This document shows, piece after piece, positions 662 through 15,340 of a stretch of DNA of 64,000 nucleotides. Location of the stretch: sequence record PP488543.1. The stretch is one strand, 5' to 3'. Both the position numbers and the translations under genes were made by a program. The DNA is from Escherichia phage BP9. Within the stretch, counting starts at the first letter, position 1. Every line of letters begins with the position of its first letter. The notes under the pieces are model-generated. The model saw only the letters and a program-made list of their open reading frames with translations. It was not told the DNA's origin and ran no database searches.

Positions 662-1135
662 ATGGAAACTCAAATTTTAACTCCTTATGCGTATGACCCT
701 AAAAAGGTCAAACTGTATCTGATGCAGCAGCGTGTCACTGGCTTCGCTGCTGACACCAAGATTGTTGTTTCAAGAAACGAAGACAACATTTATCCTCACG
801 TTGGTGTGGATGGTGAAATGTCTGCGGCTCTGTCCCGTAACCAATCTGGTGTTATGACTGTATCTTTGCAGAACACTTCTGTATGGAACGCTTACCTTTC
901 TGACTGGCAGAAACAGGCATCGATCACTGGCCTGGTATTCTTCCCGGTTCTGCTGGAAGGTAGCCAGGGCCCCGGTATTTCCACAATCGGTTGGATCCAG
1001 AAACAGCCTGACCTGACTTACGGAACCGAAGTAGGTCAACTGGACTGGGATATCGGTATTCTGGATGCATGGCTCAACCGTGACAACATCACTGGTGCTC
1101 TCACTGGCCTCGCAGGTCTTGCAGGTATTATCTAA
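662..1135 (+). CDS. putative tail tube protein (157 aa)
   Basis: Size and position between the truncated tail gene and the chaperone/tape-measure genes; followed by a strong intrinsic terminator. Assignment by synteny only. Confidence 0.3.
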   Translation: METQILTPYAYDPKKVKLYLMQQRVTGFAADTKIVVSRNEDNIYPHVGVDGEMSAALSRNQSGVMTVSLQNTSVWNAYLSDWQKQASITGLVFFPVLLEGSQGPGISTIGWIQKQPDLTYGTEVGQLDWDIGILDAWLNRDNITGALTGLAGLAGII

Positions 1136-1153
1136 GGGCACACTTTAGCATAG

Positions 1154-1180
1154 GCCTCACCTTCGGGTGGGGCTTTTTGC
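1154..1180 (+). terminator. rho-independent terminator (8-bp GC stem, UUCG loop, T-run)
   Basis: gcctcacc-ttcg-ggtggggc followed by ttttt, immediately after the stop at 1135. Confidence 0.7.
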
Positions 1181-1225: not shown

Positions 1226-1254
1226 TTGACAATGCACCATAATCATGGTAAAAT
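1226..1254 (+). promoter_or_regulatory. sigma70-type promoter with extended -10 (TTGACA-17 bp-TGgTAAAAT)
   Basis: -35 TTGACA at 1226-1231, 17-bp spacer, TG at -15/-14 and TAAAAT at 1249-1254; about 44 bp upstream of the 1298 start. Confidence 0.6.
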
Positions 1255-1297: not shown

Positions 1298-1771
1298 ATG
1301 GCTATAAACTTTAGACCTACAACAGAGATTGATTTAGCAGGGCACAACTTTGTGATCACCCACTGGGGACCGATGAAAGCAATGAAAAATATGCCTAAAA
1401 TCGGTAAGATTGTGGCTGTCCCGCTAGGTGCTATCGGTGGATCTATTATCTCAGGTGGTCAGAATATGGCAGAGGTCCTTCCTACTGCTCTGGCTTACCT
1501 GTTCCAAGAACTTGATGATAACTCTATTGAAGAGTTATTTAAAATTTTGTTCGAAGATATTACCGTAGATGGTGTGGATAAGCTTAACCCGGATGTTGTG
1601 TTTGCAGGGCATCTGCTGGAGATGATTAAGCTGGCAGGTAAGGTTCTGGAGGTTAACTACGGCTGTTTTTTCACACAAGACGGTTTAGGAAGCCTTCTGG
1701 AGATGTTACAGCAGATGGGTATGATTCAGCAGGTGAACAACCTGGATCAGACTCCGGAAGAGCAGGAATAA
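1298..1771 (+). CDS. tail assembly chaperone (lambda G / P2 E-like)
   Basis: 157-aa acidic protein immediately upstream of the tape measure gene, with an overlapping -1 frame ORF and a slippery heptamer at 1666-1672. Confidence 0.55.
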   Translation: MAINFRPTTEIDLAGHNFVITHWGPMKAMKNMPKIGKIVAVPLGAIGGSIISGGQNMAEVLPTALAYLFQELDDNSIEELFKILFEDITVDGVDKLNPDVVFAGHLLEMIKLAGKVLEVNYGCFFTQDGLGSLLEMLQQMGMIQQVNNLDQTPEEQE

Positions 1772-2031
1772 GCAAGGTTGTTGTGAGGGCCAGTGAGTGG
1801 GCAGCCAAGAACAGTTCACTAAACTGGTTCGACTTTCTTTGGTGCAGGGTGCTCAAGAATTTCAAAGGGGAAAATTTTGAATCGCTAAATCTTGCAGATA
1901 TGGCGTATTTCCTGAAGCTCTGTGAGTATCTTGATATCGAAGAATTCCTAGATACCGTCCAAAACAGGGAAATGGAGCGGGAGCAGAAGGCTGCCGCAGC
2001 TGCTGCGAAAGCTAAGCGCAGGAGAGGATAA
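1657..2031 (+). CDS. -1 frame extension ORF of the tail chaperone (GT / E+E'-like frameshift product region)
   Basis: The -1 frame is open from 1657 to the stop at 2031 and overlaps the 3' end of the 1298..1771 gene. T_TTT_TTC at 1666-1672 is a classic X_XXY_YYZ slip site. The track ORF 1783..2031 is the GTG-initiated part of this frame. Confidence 0.5.
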   Translation, partial: LRLFFHTRRFRKPSGDVTADGYDSAGEQPGSDSGRAGISKVVVRASEWAAKNSSLNWFDFLWCRVLKNFKGENFESLNLADMAYFLKLCEYLDIEEFLDTVQNREMEREQKAAAAAAKAKRRRG

Positions 2032-2085
2032 TCTAAGGGCCGGATTCCTTTTCTGGGATCTGGCCCTTTTTATTATGAGGAAACC

Positions 2086-4422
2086 ATGGCTACAAACAAA
2101 ATAGTTGCCACAACAGTCAACAAGATTGGCTTTGAGATAGAGAACTCCTCCTACAAAAAAGCTGTAGAGAAAATTCGCAGTATTGGGAGGGAGTTCAGGA
2201 AACTGGGCGAAGATTTTAACTCAGCCAACCCCATGAGTAGATGGCAGGCGGTAGCTGTTAAAACCCAGCAGACAATGCAGCGGGTTGCCAGACAGCAATC
2301 TCAGGCAAATGCTAAGCTGCACAGGGAGAGCGTAGCACAGGCCAAGAAAGAGGCTGCAGTAAGGGCTGCAATAGAACGTAGGGAGAATGCGAGACGTAAA
2401 CAAGCTGTAGGTAATCTTACCGCTAAAAATCCAGAAATGGCTAGGATGCGTAAGTTCTACCAGCAGCAAGCTAAAGAGGCCAAAAAGGCTGCCAAATCTG
2501 CACCAGTGTCTTACGGTGGTTATAAGGCACCTAAGGCAAGAGTTCTTGCTAACGCCAAGTCTTTCAGATATATTCCAGGCAACCCGAACATGGGTGGGGT
2601 GGCTTCAGATCCTAATCTTGTTAAAGCCCAGACCGCTGCCATGAACCGTTATCACAGACAGCTAAGAAGGGACGGTAAAGCTGGTATGGATAATAGGCTT
2701 ATGTCGGATCGTGAGGCAAGAAGAACCCACCTCTACAACTCCGCGATAAGACTTTCTGCCAAGTATGGTGCCGGATTCCGTGGAAGCTTGCCAGGATACT
2801 CAGAGTTAGAGTCCAGGTTTGCTCGCGGGGAGATGAAAAAGTCAACATTTAACGCCCACTTGTCAGCGCTGCAGTCTGGATTTAAAAGCGCCACCAGCCA
2901 AACGCTTACACTAGGCGATGCCATGAGAGACTTACGTAGATCTGTTATTAATGCAACAGCTGCGTATACAGCTTTTTCTGGATTTGCTGCGGTTAACAGA
3001 TCCGGTCACATGATGGAGGGGGCAAGTGCTGCTCTTACTGCTGTTACTGGAGATCCAAACAAAGCCAACAGTGAGGTTGCGTTTGTCCAGCAAGAGGCTA
3101 TGCGTCTTGGTTTTGATCTCAAATCTGGTCTTCAAGGTTACGCCCAGATGTCGGTAAACGCCAAAAACCAGATGACAAATCAGGAAGTGCATGAGCTGTT
3201 TTCTGCATACTCCCAGTATGCTGCTGCTTATGGTGCTGATGAGGTAAAATATCAGCGCGGTATCATGGCAATCCAGCAGATGCTTGGCAAGGGACAAGTA
3301 ATGTCCGAGGAACTGAAGCAACAGCTTGCTGAAGCATTACCTGGTGCATACGAACCTTTTATCAAGGCCACCAAAGAGGCTTTTGGTCTTTCTGAACTCT
3401 CCATGGATCAGTTCATGGACATGATGAAGAAAGGTGAGGTTAAAACAGCCAAGATCATGAAGTATGTGGCTAAGTACATGAACGAGGCATCTGCAGCTGG
3501 TTATGAAAGAATGCAGAAGTCTAACGTGCTGGCAGAAAACAGACTGAAAACCTTCATTGAACTGACTCGTCAGAAACTGTTCACCCGTTGGTCTGACGAA
3601 CTAACAGAGTTCTATTATACACTAATCCGCACTGGTGAGACTCTGCAATTTGTGTGGGATGCCTCTGGTGATTTTGTTAGCGGGTTTGTGAGAGGCCTTA
3701 ACTGGGTAGTTGGTGAACTAAACAACACTATAGTCAAGATCCGCATGTTTTTCCTTGAATGGGGGATTAAATGGGGATTCATAACAGCTAAGACGAAGGA
3801 ATATTCTGAAGAGCTTCATGACACCTTTAGCTATGCTAGATGGGCAGGGTTTGCTGCTGCCATCATGCTGGTAGTCAACGCCCTAACAAAAGGTTTTGTC
3901 ATGGCATCCATGCTTGTAAAAACCTTTAAATTCCTTAACTCTTTAAGAGGTGCAGCTGGAGCAGCTGGTGTCGCTACTGCAGAAGGATCTGGTGGTGGAG
4001 CTCCGGCAGGAAAAGGTGGAGGTGGCCTCAAGACACCTGGTGGCAAAGTTGGTCTGCTTGGTAAGCTGGGTATTATCGGTACAATATTAAGCGCAGGGGA
4101 ATTATTTAATGACCGTTTCAACCCACTAAGTGAAAGAAATCAGCAGCTGGACACTATCAGCGATATGATTCGCAAAGATATCATATCAGGAGGTAACGGG
4201 TTTGTTAATCCTTTGGACACCTTACCGGGCGGGACTCTTCCGTTGCCAGGTGGCCCCGGTTTTGCTTCTCAATTAAGAACTATGGAAATGCTACCTTTAG
4301 AGATCAGTGATGGGAAAATCACGATTTCAATAGATGAGGGTGAGTTTAACAAAATATTTGATGCAAAACTTGAGTGGGAGAACAATAAAGATATCAACTT
4401 CATGTCTACCGACCTTTGGTAA
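2086..4422 (+). CDS. tail tape measure protein (778 aa)
   Basis: Long alpha-helical, Ala/Lys/Gln-rich N-terminal half; conserved tape-measure motif (GIMAIQQMLGKGQVMSEELKQQLAEALPGAYE); hydrophobic segment and Gly-rich region (GAAGAAGVATAEGSGGGAPAGKGGGG); position after the chaperone pair. Confidence 0.85.
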   Translation: MATNKIVATTVNKIGFEIENSSYKKAVEKIRSIGREFRKLGEDFNSANPMSRWQAVAVKTQQTMQRVARQQSQANAKLHRESVAQAKKEAAVRAAIERRENARRKQAVGNLTAKNPEMARMRKFYQQQAKEAKKAAKSAPVSYGGYKAPKARVLANAKSFRYIPGNPNMGGVASDPNLVKAQTAAMNRYHRQLRRDGKAGMDNRLMSDREARRTHLYNSAIRLSAKYGAGFRGSLPGYSELESRFARGEMKKSTFNAHLSALQSGFKSATSQTLTLGDAMRDLRRSVINATAAYTAFSGFAAVNRSGHMMEGASAALTAVTGDPNKANSEVAFVQQEAMRLGFDLKSGLQGYAQMSVNAKNQMTNQEVHELFSAYSQYAAAYGADEVKYQRGIMAIQQMLGKGQVMSEELKQQLAEALPGAYEPFIKATKEAFGLSELSMDQFMDMMKKGEVKTAKIMKYVAKYMNEASAAGYERMQKSNVLAENRLKTFIELTRQKLFTRWSDELTEFYYTLIRTGETLQFVWDASGDFVSGFVRGLNWVVGELNNTIVKIRMFFLEWGIKWGFITAKTKEYSEELHDTFSYARWAGFAAAIMLVVNALTKGFVMASMLVKTFKFLNSLRGAAGAAGVATAEGSGGGAPAGKGGGGLKTPGGKVGLLGKLGIIGTILSAGELFNDRFNPLSERNQQLDTISDMIRKDIISGGNGFVNPLDTLPGGTLPLPGGPGFASQLRTMEMLPLEISDGKITISIDEGEFNKIFDAKLEWENNKDINFMSTDLW

Positions 4423-11527: not shown

Positions 11528-14500
11528 ATGGCTGATATTAAAGTTGTCAGAATTGAATCTCTTCCTGCCACTACCGCAGTGACAGAGGATGATTACCTGG
11601 TTGTTCAACAACCAGACCTGACCCGTCGTGTAAAAATTGGCGATGTTGTCCATGTTGATGGGACTGTTTCTCATGTAATCTCCTTTAAGGAAGGTGGTAA
11701 GTTAAACGGCCCAATGGATTTTGCCTACTTCGAAGAGGAAGACCTCTACCTGCGTTGGAAAGGCGAATTTCCGCACACTGTTCCTGCACTATCTTCACCG
11801 TACTCCGATGGCGGGATTACTGACGCTGCATGGATGGTATATACTGACCCGTCCTTAAGGGAGGAGCTGGAATCTACCATTGGCGCATCCATGATCATGA
11901 CAGCCGAAGGGCAGTCTGTCCAGGATGTAATGGATGTTACTGTTCAGACAGCTAACGATGCCAAAGCACTTGCACAGCGTGTAGATTTTGGTACAGTGCA
12001 CACTGTAGGCGATGTTATTCACCTTGATAACTTTGTTGGCCCTGCAGTTATTGAAGAGGGAAGAACTACCAACTACCCTTCTGTAGCAGCTGGTGAAAAA
12101 TTTCTGAACGGTGTGGTATCTCGTCGTGATACTACAACTGTTGATGGTATTTTCCGTGGCGCTACCTCCGGAGCAATGTATACCATTGCAGTAACCAACG
12201 GTGTAGCAACAACAAAAAGAATAGCACTTCGTGATGAATTTAAACGCCTGGAGGCAAACAACCAAACAAGAACAATTATCCGTGCTGGAGATGATTTAAA
12301 CACGGCAGGGTACTTGCAGCTTGATGCAACAGGCCGTTGGGGTATGTGGAACCAACAAACAGCTTCTTGGCAGCCTCTTGCTATAGAGCAGGGCGGCACA
12401 GGGGCTAGAGATGCCGCTGGAATCCGTACCAATATCGGTGCTTTCTATAAGCAACGTGCAGCCCTTGAGCCAAATTTCAATATCAATAACTTGACTGGTA
12501 ATCAGGATGGTATATACTACCAGCCGATGACTGCTTATGCAACTGAGGCAAATGGTTATCCTGCAGGTTCTGGTGCTGGTCACTTGATTGTTTGGCAGAA
12601 CAATGCTAACGGTGGTACAGGTTGTCGTCAGGAATACTATCCATTCTCCAACGTAGATGTTTGGTATTTGAGAACCTATCAGGCCAACACAAATCAGTGG
12701 ACTGCATGGCAGCCGATGGTCAGACCTCGTAACGATGATACCTTTAGAGCGCACATCGGTCTCGGGTCTAGAAACTCCCCTACCTTCGGGCACCTTTACC
12801 TGTCTCAAAGCTCTGCGGATGTTAAGTCAGCATCAGGTATTGTTAACGGAGACAAATACAACGCTGACGGTGTCCTTGAGCATGGGTATAGGATCTACTC
12901 TGAGGTAAGGAACGACAATAAGGCTTGGTTGACAATCCACCTGCACAAAGGTGCAAAAGGATCTGAAACTCATAGATATTTAGGCTTCCGTGAGGATGGG
13001 GTCTTAGATTGTCCTAAATATATGCAGGTTGGTGATCTGAACGGTCAGATGGCAAACTGGGGACTTGGAGAATGGATCCGCAGTTCAGGAGCAGAAAGAG
13101 GTTTCTGGGGATCTAAGAAAGCCGCCAAGATGGTCATCTGGGATGGCGGTATGGACGAGCAAGGTGAAGGAACGCTTGAGTGGGGTGTTTATAACAACCG
13201 GAAAGCCAAATGGGAACCACTACCGATAGCTTGTGGTGGTACCAGTGCCAGGACTGTAGGGGATGCTCAAGCACAATTCAGAATCCCTCTGGCAGCAGGT
13301 ACTAGACCATATGTAAACCTGCCTAGAACTGCAGCTATGCAGGACGGTAAGTATTATCCTATTATCGTCAGAACTGACCCCAACTTTGCAGCAACTATCG
13401 GGACAGATTTAACCATTGTCACCAGATCTTCTTCTGGCGGCGACCCAATGAACTGTGCTACACTACAGTGTCACTACAGAATTGGTGGCTGGACAGACAG
13501 AGGTGATTCTTTCCAAGGGGTTATTAATTTCTACCAAAACGAGAAAGCAATCCTCGGATGTGTATCTCCAACCAGAGGTAAGCAGGAGTATGTTGCATTC
13601 TATGTAGAGGCACGTGCATTCCCTGTTACAGTATATGCTGGCGCTACTGTAATAGAAGTGTCAACCAGGGAGGTTGATTGGCAGGTAGGCAACGTGGAAG
13701 GTAACCAAGATGGTGTCAAGTTCTGTGCTCCTCTGGCATCTGCAGATTTGAGTCTTGCAATCAAAGGTGATGATGTAACAAACACTAGACCTCTGGTTGA
13801 GTTCAAAGGGACATCAGGTTTCTACACTGGTGGTGGAACTATGTGGCACTACCTGGGAACTCCTGAACGCTATGCAGTGATGAGCAAAATGAACATGCCT
13901 AAAGTCGAGCTTTGGGCAGACGGTATTGACTACATTTGTCCTGGTAGTCAGACCACTAGAAAAGCACTGTTCTCTAACGCAGGGTTCCAAGCTGCATCGG
14001 AAGGAACAGAGGATCTGATCAACAACACCTTTACCTCTAAATGTGGTAATGGTGCAAGACTACAAGGCCAGGCAGAGTTCAGATCTACTCCAGAGGCTGG
14101 TCAAGTTATTGTTCGTGATGTTGTAGGCACAGCTCATAGATTCTATAACTTCAACAAAGATGGCACTTTCTCAGCCCCTGGTGGTTTTGTATGTCATACT
14201 GGTGCAGACTGGAACAACCAGTTTGGGCCTAACAACCCTTCTAAAATAATGGCAGGCAATGTCAACGGACCTGAAGGATCGATGGTTGTTGGTGGGTTGT
14301 CTGTGGCGTTTTCTGGAAACTATGCCTTCCAAATGGCTGGTCGCCTTGATCAGTTATACACCAGATCTATCGAGGGTGGTAACCATAGGGCATGGAACAA
14401 AGTTATTCAGCACCGTGGTCAAGGTCTGGGGACAGAAGACCTTAATGACTACGATGGTAGCCGTGAAGGTTTCTATCACCAGGGTTCAAACGCTGACGCA

Positions 14501-15340
14501 CTTGTAATAGCTCGTCACTACCCTGCTCCGTACGCTGGTACGCTGCTTGTTTACAAAAACACAGCCAACAGACCGCAAGGTTGTGTGCAGGAATACATTA
14601 CCTATTTTGGTGACAGATATACTCGTGCTGGTAACTACGTTGGCGATGTCTTTACTTGGGAAGAATGGAGACACGATGCTGGTAAGGGCATTCAGTTAAG
14701 ACCTAATTACACTTTCGGTGAAAACAGTACTCAGCTGGAAATTCATGTTGGTGCTAATGGTCTTCCATCCAACGCCGATAACTTACCTACCAACAATGCT
14801 ATACTCCATTATTGGGGTAACGGCAGTGCAGGGACTCGTCCAAACGTGTTAGAGTTTAAGGTTCTTGACGAGTCTCAATCGGCTTATGTATGGCATTGCG
14901 GTACCTTGCCGGATAAATCAAGATATCTTTCTGTAAACGGTGCTGTGAATTGCACATCTGTCAATCAGAGTTCTGACAGAGATCTGAAAGATAACATAGC
15001 TGTTATTCCTGATGCGTTAGAAGCTATCCGGAAGATGAGGGGTTATACTTACACTCTTAAAGAGAACGGTATGCCTTATGCAGGTGTTATAGCACAAGAA
15101 GTTCTTGAAGCGCTGCCGGAAGCAGTTAGCTCTTTCGTGCAAAGAAAGGAAATCCCAAACCCTGATCAGGATGGAACTCCTTTAATAACAGAGGAAAGAT
15201 TCTACAGCGTGGATTACGCAGCTGTAACAGGCTTGCTTGTCCAGGTTTGCAGGGAACAGGATGATAAAATAACCGCCCTTGAGGAGCAGGTTAAAAAATT
15301 GACAGAGGTTGTTACTGGGTTGCAAGAGAAACTGAAGTAA
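11528..15340 (+). CDS. long tail fibre with C-terminal peptidase S74 intramolecular chaperone domain (1270 aa)
   Basis: C-terminus SDRDLKDNIAVIPDALEAIRKMRGYTYTLKENGMPYAGVIAQEVLEALPEAV...coiled coil is the hallmark autoproteolytic chaperone domain of endosialidases and T5 L-shaped fibres; N-terminal anchor shared with 8224..8892. Confidence 0.8.
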   Translation: MADIKVVRIESLPATTAVTEDDYLVVQQPDLTRRVKIGDVVHVDGTVSHVISFKEGGKLNGPMDFAYFEEEDLYLRWKGEFPHTVPALSSPYSDGGITDAAWMVYTDPSLREELESTIGASMIMTAEGQSVQDVMDVTVQTANDAKALAQRVDFGTVHTVGDVIHLDNFVGPAVIEEGRTTNYPSVAAGEKFLNGVVSRRDTTTVDGIFRGATSGAMYTIAVTNGVATTKRIALRDEFKRLEANNQTRTIIRAGDDLNTAGYLQLDATGRWGMWNQQTASWQPLAIEQGGTGARDAAGIRTNIGAFYKQRAALEPNFNINNLTGNQDGIYYQPMTAYATEANGYPAGSGAGHLIVWQNNANGGTGCRQEYYPFSNVDVWYLRTYQANTNQWTAWQPMVRPRNDDTFRAHIGLGSRNSPTFGHLYLSQSSADVKSASGIVNGDKYNADGVLEHGYRIYSEVRNDNKAWLTIHLHKGAKGSETHRYLGFREDGVLDCPKYMQVGDLNGQMANWGLGEWIRSSGAERGFWGSKKAAKMVIWDGGMDEQGEGTLEWGVYNNRKAKWEPLPIACGGTSARTVGDAQAQFRIPLAAGTRPYVNLPRTAAMQDGKYYPIIVRTDPNFAATIGTDLTIVTRSSSGGDPMNCATLQCHYRIGGWTDRGDSFQGVINFYQNEKAILGCVSPTRGKQEYVAFYVEARAFPVTVYAGATVIEVSTREVDWQVGNVEGNQDGVKFCAPLASADLSLAIKGDDVTNTRPLVEFKGTSGFYTGGGTMWHYLGTPERYAVMSKMNMPKVELWADGIDYICPGSQTTRKALFSNAGFQAASEGTEDLINNTFTSKCGNGARLQGQAEFRSTPEAGQVIVRDVVGTAHRFYNFNKDGTFSAPGGFVCHTGADWNNQFGPNNPSKIMAGNVNGPEGSMVVGGLSVAFSGNYAFQMAGRLDQLYTRSIEGGNHRAWNKVIQHRGQGLGTEDLNDYDGSREGFYHQGSNADALVIARHYPAPYAGTLLVYKNTANRPQGCVQEYITYFGDRYTRAGNYVGDVFTWEEWRHDAGKGIQLRPNYTFGENSTQLEIHVGANGLPSNADNLPTNNAILHYWGNGSAGTRPNVLEFKVLDESQSAYVWHCGTLPDKSRYLSVNGAVNCTSVNQSSDRDLKDNIAVIPDALEAIRKMRGYTYTLKENGMPYAGVIAQEVLEALPEAVSSFVQRKEIPNPDQDGTPLITEERFYSVDYAAVTGLLVQVCREQDDKITALEEQVKKLTEVVTGLQEKLK

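What the first reader, a model, noticed from the sequence alone, without database searches (positions are those of the whole stretch)
1298..2031. Predicted -1 programmed ribosomal frameshift in the tail chaperone gene
The chaperone ORF contains T_TTT_TTC at 1666-1672 in the X_XXY_YYZ register, and the -1 frame is open from 1657 to 2031. A -1 slip would fuse the first ~125 residues of the chaperone to a ~120-aa extension ending in a basic tail (KAAAAAAKAKRRRG). This matches the conserved G/GT-type frameshift found upstream of tape measure genes.
Basis: seen in the sequence. Interest (0 to 1): 0.5.

Follow-up and report, generated by a model that had tools for sequence, protein, structure and literature searches.

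The report
Tail chaperone −1 frameshift, rV5-like phage
The tail assembly chaperone gene of this rV5-like E. coli phage very probably makes a second, longer protein when ribosomes slip back one base at a conserved TTTTTTC; this trick is well known in phage tail genes but is left out of the public annotations I checked for this phage group.

Summary
T_TTT_TTC lies at 1666-1672 in the X_XXY_YYZ register of the chaperone ORF (1298-1771). The −1 frame is open from 1657 to 2031. A −1 slip gives a 244-aa fusion (125 + 119 aa).

The window is a Vequintavirus (rV5-like myophage). The ORF is a Pfam Phage_TAC_15 chaperone lying between the tail tube and tape measure genes.

I fetched 18 diverged relatives from several genera of Vequintavirinae and Stephanstirmvirinae, plus Aeromonas and Rheinheimera phages.
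- 17 keep T_TTT_TTC in register at the same codon.
- The Rheinheimera phage has G_GGA_AAG three codons downstream instead.
- In all 18 the −1 frame opens just upstream of the heptamer and runs about 100-130 codons to just before the tape measure gene.
- In six of them no start codon precedes the conserved C-terminal domain, so only a frameshift can make that domain whole.

Citrobacter phage Moogle carries the same heptamer in the same Pfam family, and there the frameshift is already annotated.

I found no significant or conserved downstream RNA structure. An upstream GGAGG may stimulate slipping, but this is unproven.

Verdict: a real but ordinary G/GT-type −1 programmed frameshift, and a new member of a known kind. 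No protein data exist.

The parts
662..1135 (+). Tail tube gene (157 aa), upstream neighbour of the chaperone
   Evidence: Pfam PF11681 KPP10_Orf10 structural protein, E 7e-9. Annotated as tail tube or virion structural protein in near-identical phages. Identified as the tube protein gp52 in rV5 virions.
1152..1175 (+). Terminator-like hairpin after the tube gene
   Evidence: 10-bp stem followed by a T run.
1226..1254 (+). Sigma-70-type promoter for the chaperone unit
   Evidence: TTGACA, 17-nt spacer, TAAAAT, 11 of 12 matches, with TG before the −10 hexamer. The rV5 RefSeq record annotates the equivalent site as promoter P51.
1298..1771 (+). Short chaperone form (TAC-N): 0-frame ORF, 157 aa
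   Evidence: Pfam PF21822 Phage_TAC_15, E 2.3e-23, residues 15-129. PHROG 3840 tail assembly chaperone, E 5e-69.
1648..1652 (+). GGAGG, 13 nt upstream of the heptamer: a possible Shine-Dalgarno-like stimulator (unproven)
   Evidence: Position. The same GGAGG at the same 13-nt spacing is present in phage Moogle. A core of at least 4 nt is present in about 12 of 20 relatives (read). It is confounded with the conserved L-E-V coding. The excess of GAG codons gives p = 0.06.
1666..1672 (+). Slippery heptamer T_TTT_TTC, the predicted −1 shift site
   Evidence: In register with the 0 frame. The codons NNT TTT TTC are invariant in 18 of 18 sequences that carry the heptamer, while neighbouring wobble positions vary. 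The leading T comes from three different codons: TGT (Cys), CCT (Pro) and AGT (Ser).
1672..2031 (+). −1 frame extension: 119 codons plus stop. It comprises an RRFRK motif, a Gly/Ser/Pro-rich linker, a conserved C-terminal domain of about 70 aa and a basic tail. The predicted fusion CDS is join(1298..1672,1672..2031), 244 aa
   Evidence: tblastn aligns the extension from its first residue in relatives of 50-60% identity.
1783..2031 (+). 82-aa GTG ORF, annotated in databases as a separate hypothetical protein; it is the C-terminal part of the extension
   Evidence: PHROG 10409, unknown function. Annotated as a hypothetical protein in NC_041869. The GTG is not conserved in relatives.
2035..2068 (+). 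Terminator-like hairpin between the chaperone unit and the tape measure gene
   Evidence: 14-bp stem followed by a T run. Annotated as a rho-independent terminator in rV5.
2086..4422 (+). Tape measure protein gene (778 aa), downstream neighbour
   Evidence: Pfam PF20155 TMP_3, E 1.6e-18.

Best explanation
This is a G/GT-type −1 programmed ribosomal frameshift in the tail assembly chaperone gene of an rV5-like myophage.

Most ribosomes read 1298-1771 and make the 157-aa chaperone. A minority slip at U_UUU_UUC (1666-1672), when the two tRNA-Phe sit on UUU (P site) and UUC (A site). Both tRNAs re-pair one base back, on UUU UUU. Translation then continues from CAC at 1672 in the −1 frame to the stop at 2029-2031.

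The product is a 244-aa protein. Its first 125 residues are the chaperone domain. These are followed by a flexible Gly/Ser/Pro-rich linker, a conserved C-terminal domain of about 70 aa, and a basic tail.

By analogy with lambda gpG/gpGT, both forms would coat the tape measure protein. The C-terminal domain of the rare long form would recruit the tail tube protein to start tube polymerisation. Neither form would remain in the virion.

Shown here: the heptamer, its register, the frame structure, membership of a chaperone family, the gene order, and deep conservation of the site and of the open −1 frame. Inferred: that slipping really occurs, how often, that it is ribosomal, and what the two products do.
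For: 1. Register and frames are as stated.

2. The ORF belongs to Pfam Phage_TAC_15 (E 2e-23), and the heptamer sits at the end of the domain match. The gene lies between the tube and tape measure genes.

3. In 17 of 18 relatives T_TTT_TTC is in register at the equivalent codon. These span Avuna-, Seuna-, Mydo-, Certre- and Henunavirus, Stephanstirmvirinae and an Aeromonas Plateaulakevirus. Rheinheimera phage Barba5A has lost the T run but has G_GGA_AAG three codons downstream.

4. In all 18 the −1 frame opens 3-93 nt upstream of the site (3-45 nt in the 17 T_TTT_TTC phages) and then runs 93-128 codons. It carries 7-18 stops in the 90-140 codons upstream. The +1 frame is closed. The chance that the overlap alone stays open under codon shuffling is 0.05-0.7 per phage.

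5. The heptamer codons are invariant 18 of 18 while flanking synonymous sites vary. The window's own Phe codon usage is 86 TTT to 65 TTC. The leading T comes from Cys, Pro or Ser codons. The final C is invariant although the −1 codon it begins encodes His, Gln or Arg.

6. The extension is conserved as protein from its first residues (the RFR motif) onwards.

7. In KB57, F2M1E, PcCB7V, PBES02, pEa_SNUABM_55 and phiA009 the first ATG, GTG or TTG of the −1 ORF lies inside the conserved C-terminal domain. Gene callers start these ORFs at scattered positions.

8. Phage Moogle's chaperone is in the same Pfam family (E 7.5e-20) and is 24% identical to this one (E 8e-7). It has the same heptamer after ...NFGSFF, and its record carries a joined frameshift CDS.

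9. In E. coli, UUN A-site codons and all-pyrimidine heptamers are among the shift-prone motifs (PMC4066793).

10. A 2025 paper reports the same conserved −1 frameshift, with a GTTTTT motif, in the related Vandenendeviridae and Andersonviridae (PMC12846349).
Against: - There is no protein, ribosome-profiling or reporter evidence for any rV5-like phage. The rV5 paper does not mention a frameshift.
- No significant or conserved RNA structure lies downstream of the site. Fold z-scores are −1.3, +0.9 and −0.7, and the consensus fold energies are −0.3 and −4.5 kcal/mol. Efficiency may therefore be low. As I recall, the lambda site also works without such a structure.
- In this phage a GTG (1783) with a weak AAGG 5 nt upstream could start the C-terminal domain independently.
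- Part of the nucleotide conservation around the site is forced by coding in two frames.
- No natural in-frame fusion of the chaperone with the C-terminal domain turned up among 1.84 billion representative proteins.
Confidence: 0.88

Rival explanations
1. There is no frameshift. The region 1783-2031 is a separate small gene, translated from its own GTG or by reinitiation after the chaperone stop 12 nt upstream. The open −1 frame across the overlap is incidental.
For: A GTG at 1783 is preceded by AAGG at a spacing of 5 nt. Several public records annotate it as a separate hypothetical protein. PHROGs treats it as a separate family.
Against: The GTG is not conserved. In six relatives no start codon exists before or at the start of the conserved domain. 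Annotated starts are scattered. The −1 frame is open and protein-conserved from the heptamer onward in all 18 relatives. This rival also cannot explain why TTT TTC and the preceding wobble T are invariant.
Confidence: 0.04
2. The same 244-aa fusion is made by transcriptional slippage rather than by ribosomes. RNA polymerase adds one extra U in the T6 run, and the edited mRNA is read normally.
For: The site is a homopolymeric T6 run. Inserting one U gives exactly the same protein, so protein data alone cannot separate the two mechanisms (direct reasoning).
Against: - From my own knowledge, not tested here: T6 is shorter than the runs usually used for productive polymerase slippage in bacteria, which are about 8-9.
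- The final base is invariantly C in 18 of 18 sequences, although a seventh T would lengthen the run.
- Barba5A has replaced the run with G_GGA_AAG, a ribosomal slippery heptamer that has no long homopolymer.
- The run always sits in the exact ribosomal register.
Confidence: 0.05
3. Both routes operate in this phage: a −1 frameshift makes the fusion, and the GTG at 1783 additionally yields a free C-terminal domain.
For: A GTG with a weak Shine-Dalgarno sequence lies 12 nt after the chaperone stop, which would suit termination-reinitiation. Start codons occur at similar positions in some relatives, for example Av-05, SSE121 and W70.
Against: There is no conserved start across the family. No function is known for a free T-like domain. 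As I recall from the lambda literature, the balance of gpG to gpGT matters for tail assembly.
Confidence: 0.12

Closest known systems
Lambda gpG/gpGT and the conserved tail assembly chaperone frameshift of dsDNA phages (Levin et al. 1993 and Xu et al. 2004, as cited in PMC5009743)
   Same: Two overlapping ORFs lie between the major tail (tube) gene and the tape measure gene. [quoted passage not shown] The second ORF is in the −1 frame and has no conserved start. The expected outcome is a short major product and a long minor product. The relative Barba5A uses G_GGA_AAG, which I recall as lambda's heptamer.
   Different: The heptamer here is T_TTT_TTC. The chaperone belongs to a different sequence family (Pfam PF21822), and the C-terminal domain has no detectable similarity to any named family. 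The host phage is a contractile-tailed myovirus. The chaperone unit has its own promoter and is flanked by terminators.
Tape measure chaperone of Citrobacter phage Moogle (Ounavirinae, Felix O1-like), annotated with a translational frameshift (KM236239; PMC4319497)
   Same: Same Pfam family PF21822 (E 7.5e-20). 24% identity over the full length (E 8e-7). The same T_TTT_TTC at the homologous ...N[FY]G[SC]FF position. The same GGAGG 13 nt upstream. A −1 extension of 93 aa running up to the tape measure gene.
   Different: Homology of the C-terminal domains is not established: BLASTP finds nothing, and hhalign gives E 0.008 with a probability of 5%. The phages belong to different subfamilies. Moogle's frameshift is annotated; that of the rV5-like phages is not.
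Conserved −1 frameshift with a GTTTTT motif in the chaperone genes of Vandenendeviridae (Pakpunavirus, phage Adele) and Andersonviridae (PMC12846349, 2025)
   Same: The same comparative argument applies: the downstream 'hypothetical protein' is really the C-terminal domain of the long chaperone form, the −1 frame is never interrupted, and a poly-T motif is conserved at the 3' end of the short form. The window reads TGTTTTTTC, which contains GTTTTT.
   Different: The passages I read test Vandenendeviridae and Andersonviridae, not Vequintavirinae or Stephanstirmvirinae. In Stephanstirmvirinae the motif is CCCTTTTTTC, with no G.
T7 gene 10A/10B and P2 gpE/E+E' frameshifts on U-rich heptamers (from my own knowledge; the T7 case is cited)
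   Same: A −1 slip of tRNA-Phe on a UUU-containing heptamer in an E. coli phage structural or assembly gene. P2 is also a myophage chaperone case.
   Different: Different genes and protein families, and not identical heptamers (G_GUU_UUC in T7, T_TTT_TTG in P2, as I recall). None of this was tested here.

Membership tests
G/GT-type tail assembly chaperone −1 programmed frameshift | The gene pair lies between the major tail (tube) gene and the tape measure gene | tested here: met
   Tube 662-1135, chaperone 1298-1771, extension to 2031, tape measure 2086-4422. The order is the same in all 18 relatives and in Moogle.
G/GT-type tail assembly chaperone −1 programmed frameshift | The upstream ORF is a tail assembly chaperone | tested here: met
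   Pfam PF21822 Phage_TAC_15, E 2.3e-23, above the curated cut-off (83.6 against 22 bits). PHROG 3840, E 5e-69. No solved relative by sequence.
G/GT-type tail assembly chaperone −1 programmed frameshift | [quoted passage not shown] | tested here: met
   T_TTT_TTC at 1666-1672, codons 123-125 of 157. It is the only in-register heptamer in the ORF.
G/GT-type tail assembly chaperone −1 programmed frameshift | The downstream ORF is in the −1 frame, open from the shift site, and lacks its own conserved start codon | tested here: met
   The −1 frame is open 1657-2031. The GTG at 1783 is not conserved, and six relatives have no start before the conserved domain.
G/GT-type tail assembly chaperone −1 programmed frameshift | The arrangement is conserved among diverged relatives despite sequence divergence | tested here: met
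   17 of 18 relatives keep T_TTT_TTC and one has G_GGA_AAG. The −1 frame is open in all. Chaperone identity falls to about 30%.
G/GT-type tail assembly chaperone −1 programmed frameshift | Short and long products are both made, at a low long-to-short ratio | not testable with these tools
   This needs western blotting or mass spectrometry of infected cells, or a reporter assay.
G/GT-type tail assembly chaperone −1 programmed frameshift | Both products are needed for tail assembly and are absent from mature virions | not testable with these tools
   Only indirect support: the text of the rV5 proteome paper names gp49, gp52 and gp53 among the virion proteins but not gp50 or gp51. I did not open its supplementary table.
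dnaX/IS-type stimulated −1 frameshift (upstream Shine-Dalgarno-like element plus downstream hairpin or pseudoknot) | A Shine-Dalgarno-like sequence about 10-14 nt upstream of the heptamer (spacing recalled from Larsen et al. 1994) | tested here: inconclusive
   GGAGG at 1648-1652, 13 nt upstream, and identical in Moogle. A core of at least 4 nt is present in only about 12 of 20 relatives. It is confounded with the L-E-V codons. The excess of GAG codons gives p = 0.06.
dnaX/IS-type stimulated −1 frameshift (upstream Shine-Dalgarno-like element plus downstream hairpin or pseudoknot) | A stable RNA structure 5-9 nt downstream of the heptamer | tested here: not met
   Fold z-scores of −1.3, +0.9 and −0.7. 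No conserved or covarying helix in two alignments of relatives. Pseudoknots were not searched.
Programmed transcriptional slippage | A long homopolymeric A or T run (typically 8 or more) whose length, not its reading-frame register, is what is conserved | tested here: not met
   The run is T6, ended by an invariant C. Barba5A replaces it with GGGAAAG. The length threshold comes from my own knowledge.

The most novel reading that the evidence does not exclude
The shift may be boosted by pairing between the translating ribosome's 16S rRNA and the in-gene GGAGG 13 nt upstream of the heptamer, rather than by a 3' RNA structure. That element sits at the identical distance in the window and in the distantly related phage Moogle. 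If so, this would be a dnaX-like Shine-Dalgarno stimulator embedded in a conserved L-E-V/A coding motif, setting the ratio of short to long chaperone. Lineages that lack it, such as Certrevirus, would then frameshift less or use another stimulator.
Probability: 0.2. Interest if true: 0.4.

Novelty: new member of a known kind. Interest (0 to 1): 0.25.

Why it matters
The main use is to correct annotation. The rV5-like and phAPEC8-like records I inspected, out of several hundred that match, either list the downstream ORF as an unrelated 'hypothetical protein' or omit it. PHROGs files it as a family of unknown function. It should be annotated as the C-terminal domain of the long chaperone form, join(1298..1672,1672..2031).

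The result also shows that one shift site, T_TTT_TTC after ...N-Y/F-G-x-F-F, has been kept since before Vequintavirinae, Stephanstirmvirinae and the Felix O1-like phages diverged. One lineage swapped it for G_GGA_AAG. That is a clear example of selection acting on the decoding event itself rather than on the sequence.

For phage engineering and therapy, where rV5-like phages are widely used, recoding or codon-optimising this gene would silently remove the long form and probably block tail assembly.

It does not change the understanding of frameshifting or of tail assembly.

Tried and rejected
1. Downstream stimulatory RNA structure. Three folds of the window and two alignment folds of relatives gave nothing significant or conserved. 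Pseudoknots could not be tested.

2. Natural in-frame fusions of the chaperone with the C-terminal domain.
- The word-indexed search found only 3 short proteins.
- The exhaustive search of 1.84 billion representatives found 17 hits. The phage hits are all fragments of 43-102 aa that start at different points, and none is a fusion of about 245 aa.

3. Five long hits in that exhaustive search are DUF285/leucine-rich-repeat proteins. I judged this to be similarity of periodic leucine patterns, not homology.

4. Solved structures by sequence: none for either part. I did not run structure prediction, because it does not bear on whether the frameshift occurs and because alignments built from GenBank relatives cannot be submitted.

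5. Homology of the C-terminal domain to Moogle's: BLASTP found nothing and hhalign was marginal. This stays open.

6. Literature on a frameshift in rV5, PVP-SE1, phAPEC8 or Vequintavirus. Nothing specific was found. The library covers only open-access papers, so an earlier report cannot be excluded.

7. Publicly annotated joined CDS in rV5-like or Stephanstirmvirinae phages: none in the 22 records inspected.

8. Statistical support for the upstream GGAGG: the codon-choice test is not significant.

9. Chance explanation: rejected.

Full report
**What the window is**

Region 1100-2200 is 100% identical to Escherichia phage VB-EcoM-WM. It is 95-99% identical to more than 100 rV5-like phages of the genus Vequintavirus.

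The local gene order is as follows:
- end of the tail sheath gene (to 651);
- tail tube gene (662-1135);
- a 157-aa ORF (1298-1771);
- an 82-aa GTG ORF (1783-2031);
- tape measure gene (2086-4422, Pfam TMP_3);
- baseplate genes downstream.

The 157-aa ORF is a tail assembly chaperone. It matches Pfam PF21822 Phage_TAC_15 with E 2.3e-23 over residues 15-129. It matches PHROG 3840 with E 5e-69.

**Checking the observation**

- Positions 1664-1672 read TGT TTT TTC in the frame of the ORF, so T_TTT_TTC at 1666-1672 is in the X_XXY_YYZ register.
- The −1 frame has a TAA at 1654-1656, is open from 1657, and stops at 2029-2031.
- The +1 frame across the chaperone stop is closed.
- A −1 slip joins 125 residues (...VLEVNYGCFF) to 119 residues (HTRRFRK...KAAAAAAKAKRRRG), giving 244 aa.

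The heptamer by itself is unremarkable: there are 8 copies in the window against 16 expected from shuffles. The configuration is unusual. I examined 74 in-register heptamers in all ORFs of at least 100 aa on both strands. Only two have a −1 extension of at least 100 codons. The other is a shadow ORF antisense to the 1270-aa gene at 11528-15340.

**Comparative evidence**

tblastn with the chaperone found 490 phage records. tblastn with the −1 extension found 355. The extension aligns from its very first residue in relatives of only 50-60% identity. So the part of the −1 frame that overlaps the chaperone gene is conserved as protein.

I fetched 18 diverged loci:
- Vequintavirinae genera Avuna-, Seuna-, Mydo-, Certre- and Henunavirus, plus unclassified members;
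- Stephanstirmvirinae (Justusliebigvirus, and unclassified or phAPEC8-like members);
- Aeromonas phage phiA009;
- Rheinheimera phage Barba5A.

The results were as follows.

a. Site conservation. 17 of 18 have T_TTT_TTC in register at the homologous position, ...N-Y-G/S/K-C/P/S-F-F.

b. Site turnover. Barba5A has lost the T run (C-L-T in place of C-F-F). It carries G_GGA_AAG three codons downstream.

c. Frame structure. In every locus the −1 frame opens 3-93 nt upstream of the site (3-45 nt in the 17 T_TTT_TTC phages). It runs 93-128 codons to just before the tape measure gene. The same frame has 7-18 stops in the 90-140 codons upstream. The +1 frame is always closed.

d. Nucleotide-level selection. 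The three codons of the heptamer are invariant in the 18 sequences that carry it, counting the window. Neighbouring wobble positions vary freely, for example TAC/TAT at 12:6. The leading T is supplied by three different codons: TGT (Cys), CCT (Pro) and AGT (Ser). The last base is always C, although the −1 codon it begins encodes His, Gln or Arg. Phe codon usage in the window's structural genes is balanced, 86 TTT to 65 TTC.

e. Architecture of the extension. It has a conserved x-R-F-R motif right after the slip, a variable Gly/Ser/Pro-rich linker, a conserved domain of about 70 aa (SSLxW[YF]D[YF]L...LLKLNEYLDIEEF), and a mostly basic tail.

f. Start codons. In KB57, F2M1E, PcCB7V, PBES02, pEa_SNUABM_55 and phiA009 the first ATG, GTG or TTG of the −1 ORF lies inside that conserved domain. 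Independent initiation cannot produce the whole domain there. The window's GTG at 1783 is not conserved.

Codon shuffling of the overlap gives a chance of 0.05-0.7 per phage that the −1 frame stays open. Over roughly a dozen diverged lineages this makes chance negligible, though the lineages are not fully independent.

**A homologue with an annotated frameshift**

[quoted passage not shown] Its record carries a two-piece joined CDS.
- Its short chaperone form belongs to the same Pfam family (E 7.5e-20).
- It is 24% identical to the window protein over its full length (E 8e-7).
- It has T_TTT_TTC in register after ...ANFGSFF, with a 93-codon −1 extension.

The site is therefore older than the split between Felix O1-like and rV5-like phages. 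A 2025 paper makes the same comparative case for a conserved −1 frameshift, with a GTTTTT motif, in Vandenendeviridae and Andersonviridae (PMC12846349).

**Mechanism**

The best explanation is tandem −1 slippage of two tRNA-Phe, from UUU UUC to U UUU UU. In E. coli, UUN A-site codons and all-pyrimidine heptamers are among the more shift-prone motifs (PMC4066793).

I found no downstream stimulatory structure.
- Fold z-scores are −1.3, +0.9 and −0.7.
- Alignment folds of relatives show no conserved helix.
- Pseudoknots were not examined.

As I recall, the lambda G/GT site also needs no such structure, so this absence does not argue against the frameshift.

A GGAGG lies at 1648-1652, 13 nt upstream of the heptamer. 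Moogle has the same pentamer at the same distance. This resembles the Shine-Dalgarno-like stimulator of dnaX; the spacing rule is from memory. However, the motif falls in conserved L-E-V codons and is absent from several lineages. Its codon-choice signal is not significant, p = 0.06. It remains a hypothesis.

**Function**

Function is inferred from the lambda paradigm (PMC5009743). The abundant short form and the chaperone part of the long form bind the tape measure protein. The extra domain of the rare long form recruits the tube protein. Neither stays in the virion. In agreement, the text of the rV5 proteome paper names gp49 (tape measure), gp52 (tube) and gp53 (sheath) among the virion proteins, but not gp50 or gp51.

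**Rival explanations**

1. Separate gene from GTG 1783. This is contradicted by the lack of a conserved start, by protein conservation from the heptamer onward, and by the invariance of the heptamer.

2. Transcriptional slippage on T6. It would give the same protein. It is disfavoured by the short run, by the invariant terminal C, and by Barba5A's GGGAAAG.

3. Both routes together in this phage. This cannot be excluded.

**State of annotation and literature**

None of the 22 rV5-like and Stephanstirmvirinae records I inspected annotates a joined CDS. The downstream ORF is either a 'hypothetical protein' with an arbitrary start or is missing. PHROGs lists it as a family of unknown function.

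The rV5 RefSeq record annotates ORF50 as a 122-aa protein beginning at a CTG equivalent to window 1663. That is the slip site itself, and the ORF overlaps gp051 by 109 nt. The long −1 ORF was therefore noticed, but it was not interpreted as a frameshift product. The rV5 paper does not mention frameshifting. Full-text searches found no report for rV5-, PVP-SE1- or phAPEC8-like phages. The library covers only open-access papers.

**Verdict**

This is a textbook-type tail chaperone −1 frameshift, strongly supported by comparative genomics and homologous to an already annotated case. It is new only in that it is neither annotated nor, in the papers I could search, described for this phage group. 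Experimental confirmation is lacking. Interest is low to moderate.

Noticed in passing
window 1152-1175, 1226-1254, 2035-2068: The chaperone unit looks like its own small transcription unit. A terminator-like hairpin follows the tube gene. A near-consensus sigma-70 promoter (TTGACA, 17-nt spacer, TAAAAT with TG) precedes the chaperone. A second strong terminator-like hairpin lies between the extension ORF and the tape measure start. rV5 RefSeq annotates the same promoter (P51) and terminator. A terminator between the chaperone and tape measure genes differs from my recollection of lambda, where G, T and H are read from one late transcript.
   Followed up: partly
L023 (NC_011041 rV5) 792-1160, equivalent to window 1663-2031: The rV5 reference genome annotates ORF50 (gp050, 122 aa) from a non-canonical CTG that lies exactly at the slip site, overlapping the chaperone gene by 109 nt. 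This is an annotation artefact of the unrecognised frameshift. Other records start the same ORF at various ATG, GTG or TTG codons, or omit it.
   Followed up: yes
search hits H4-H8, H31, H37, H44 (MG0656xx records): More than 20 unannotated GenBank records named 'Campylobacter phage' (host Campylobacter jejuni) are about 99% identical to this E. coli rV5-like phage across the region. Others match phAPEC8-like phages. These look like mislabelled or contaminant genomes rather than true Campylobacter phages.
   Followed up: no
window 1672-2028 translated, residues about 32-88: The conserved C-terminal domain gives weak multi-copy matches (E 4e-6 to 8e-4) to large DUF285/BspA-type leucine-rich-repeat proteins in the representative-protein search. 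This is probably similarity of periodic Leu/Phe patterns, but it hints that the domain may be a short repeat-like alpha/beta unit.
   Followed up: partly
L017 (Rheinheimera phage Barba5A) 1818-1824 and 2120-2758: Barba5A has swapped the T_TTT_TTC site for G_GGA_AAG three codons downstream. It also has a reverse-strand 'putative DNA binding protein' gene inserted between the chaperone extension and the tape measure gene, which breaks the usual adjacency.
   Followed up: partly
L004, L005, L013-L015, L018 (Stephanstirmvirinae) at the slip site: These phages have CCC TTT TTT C. This offers two overlapping in-register heptamers, C_CCT_TTT and T_TTT_TTC, both leading into the same −1 ORF.
   Followed up: no
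window 12073-12432, minus strand: This is the only other in-register heptamer in the window (TTTAAAT) with a −1 extension longer than 100 codons. It lies in a shadow ORF antisense to the 1270-aa plus-strand gene at 11528-15340, so it is almost certainly meaningless.
   Followed up: yes
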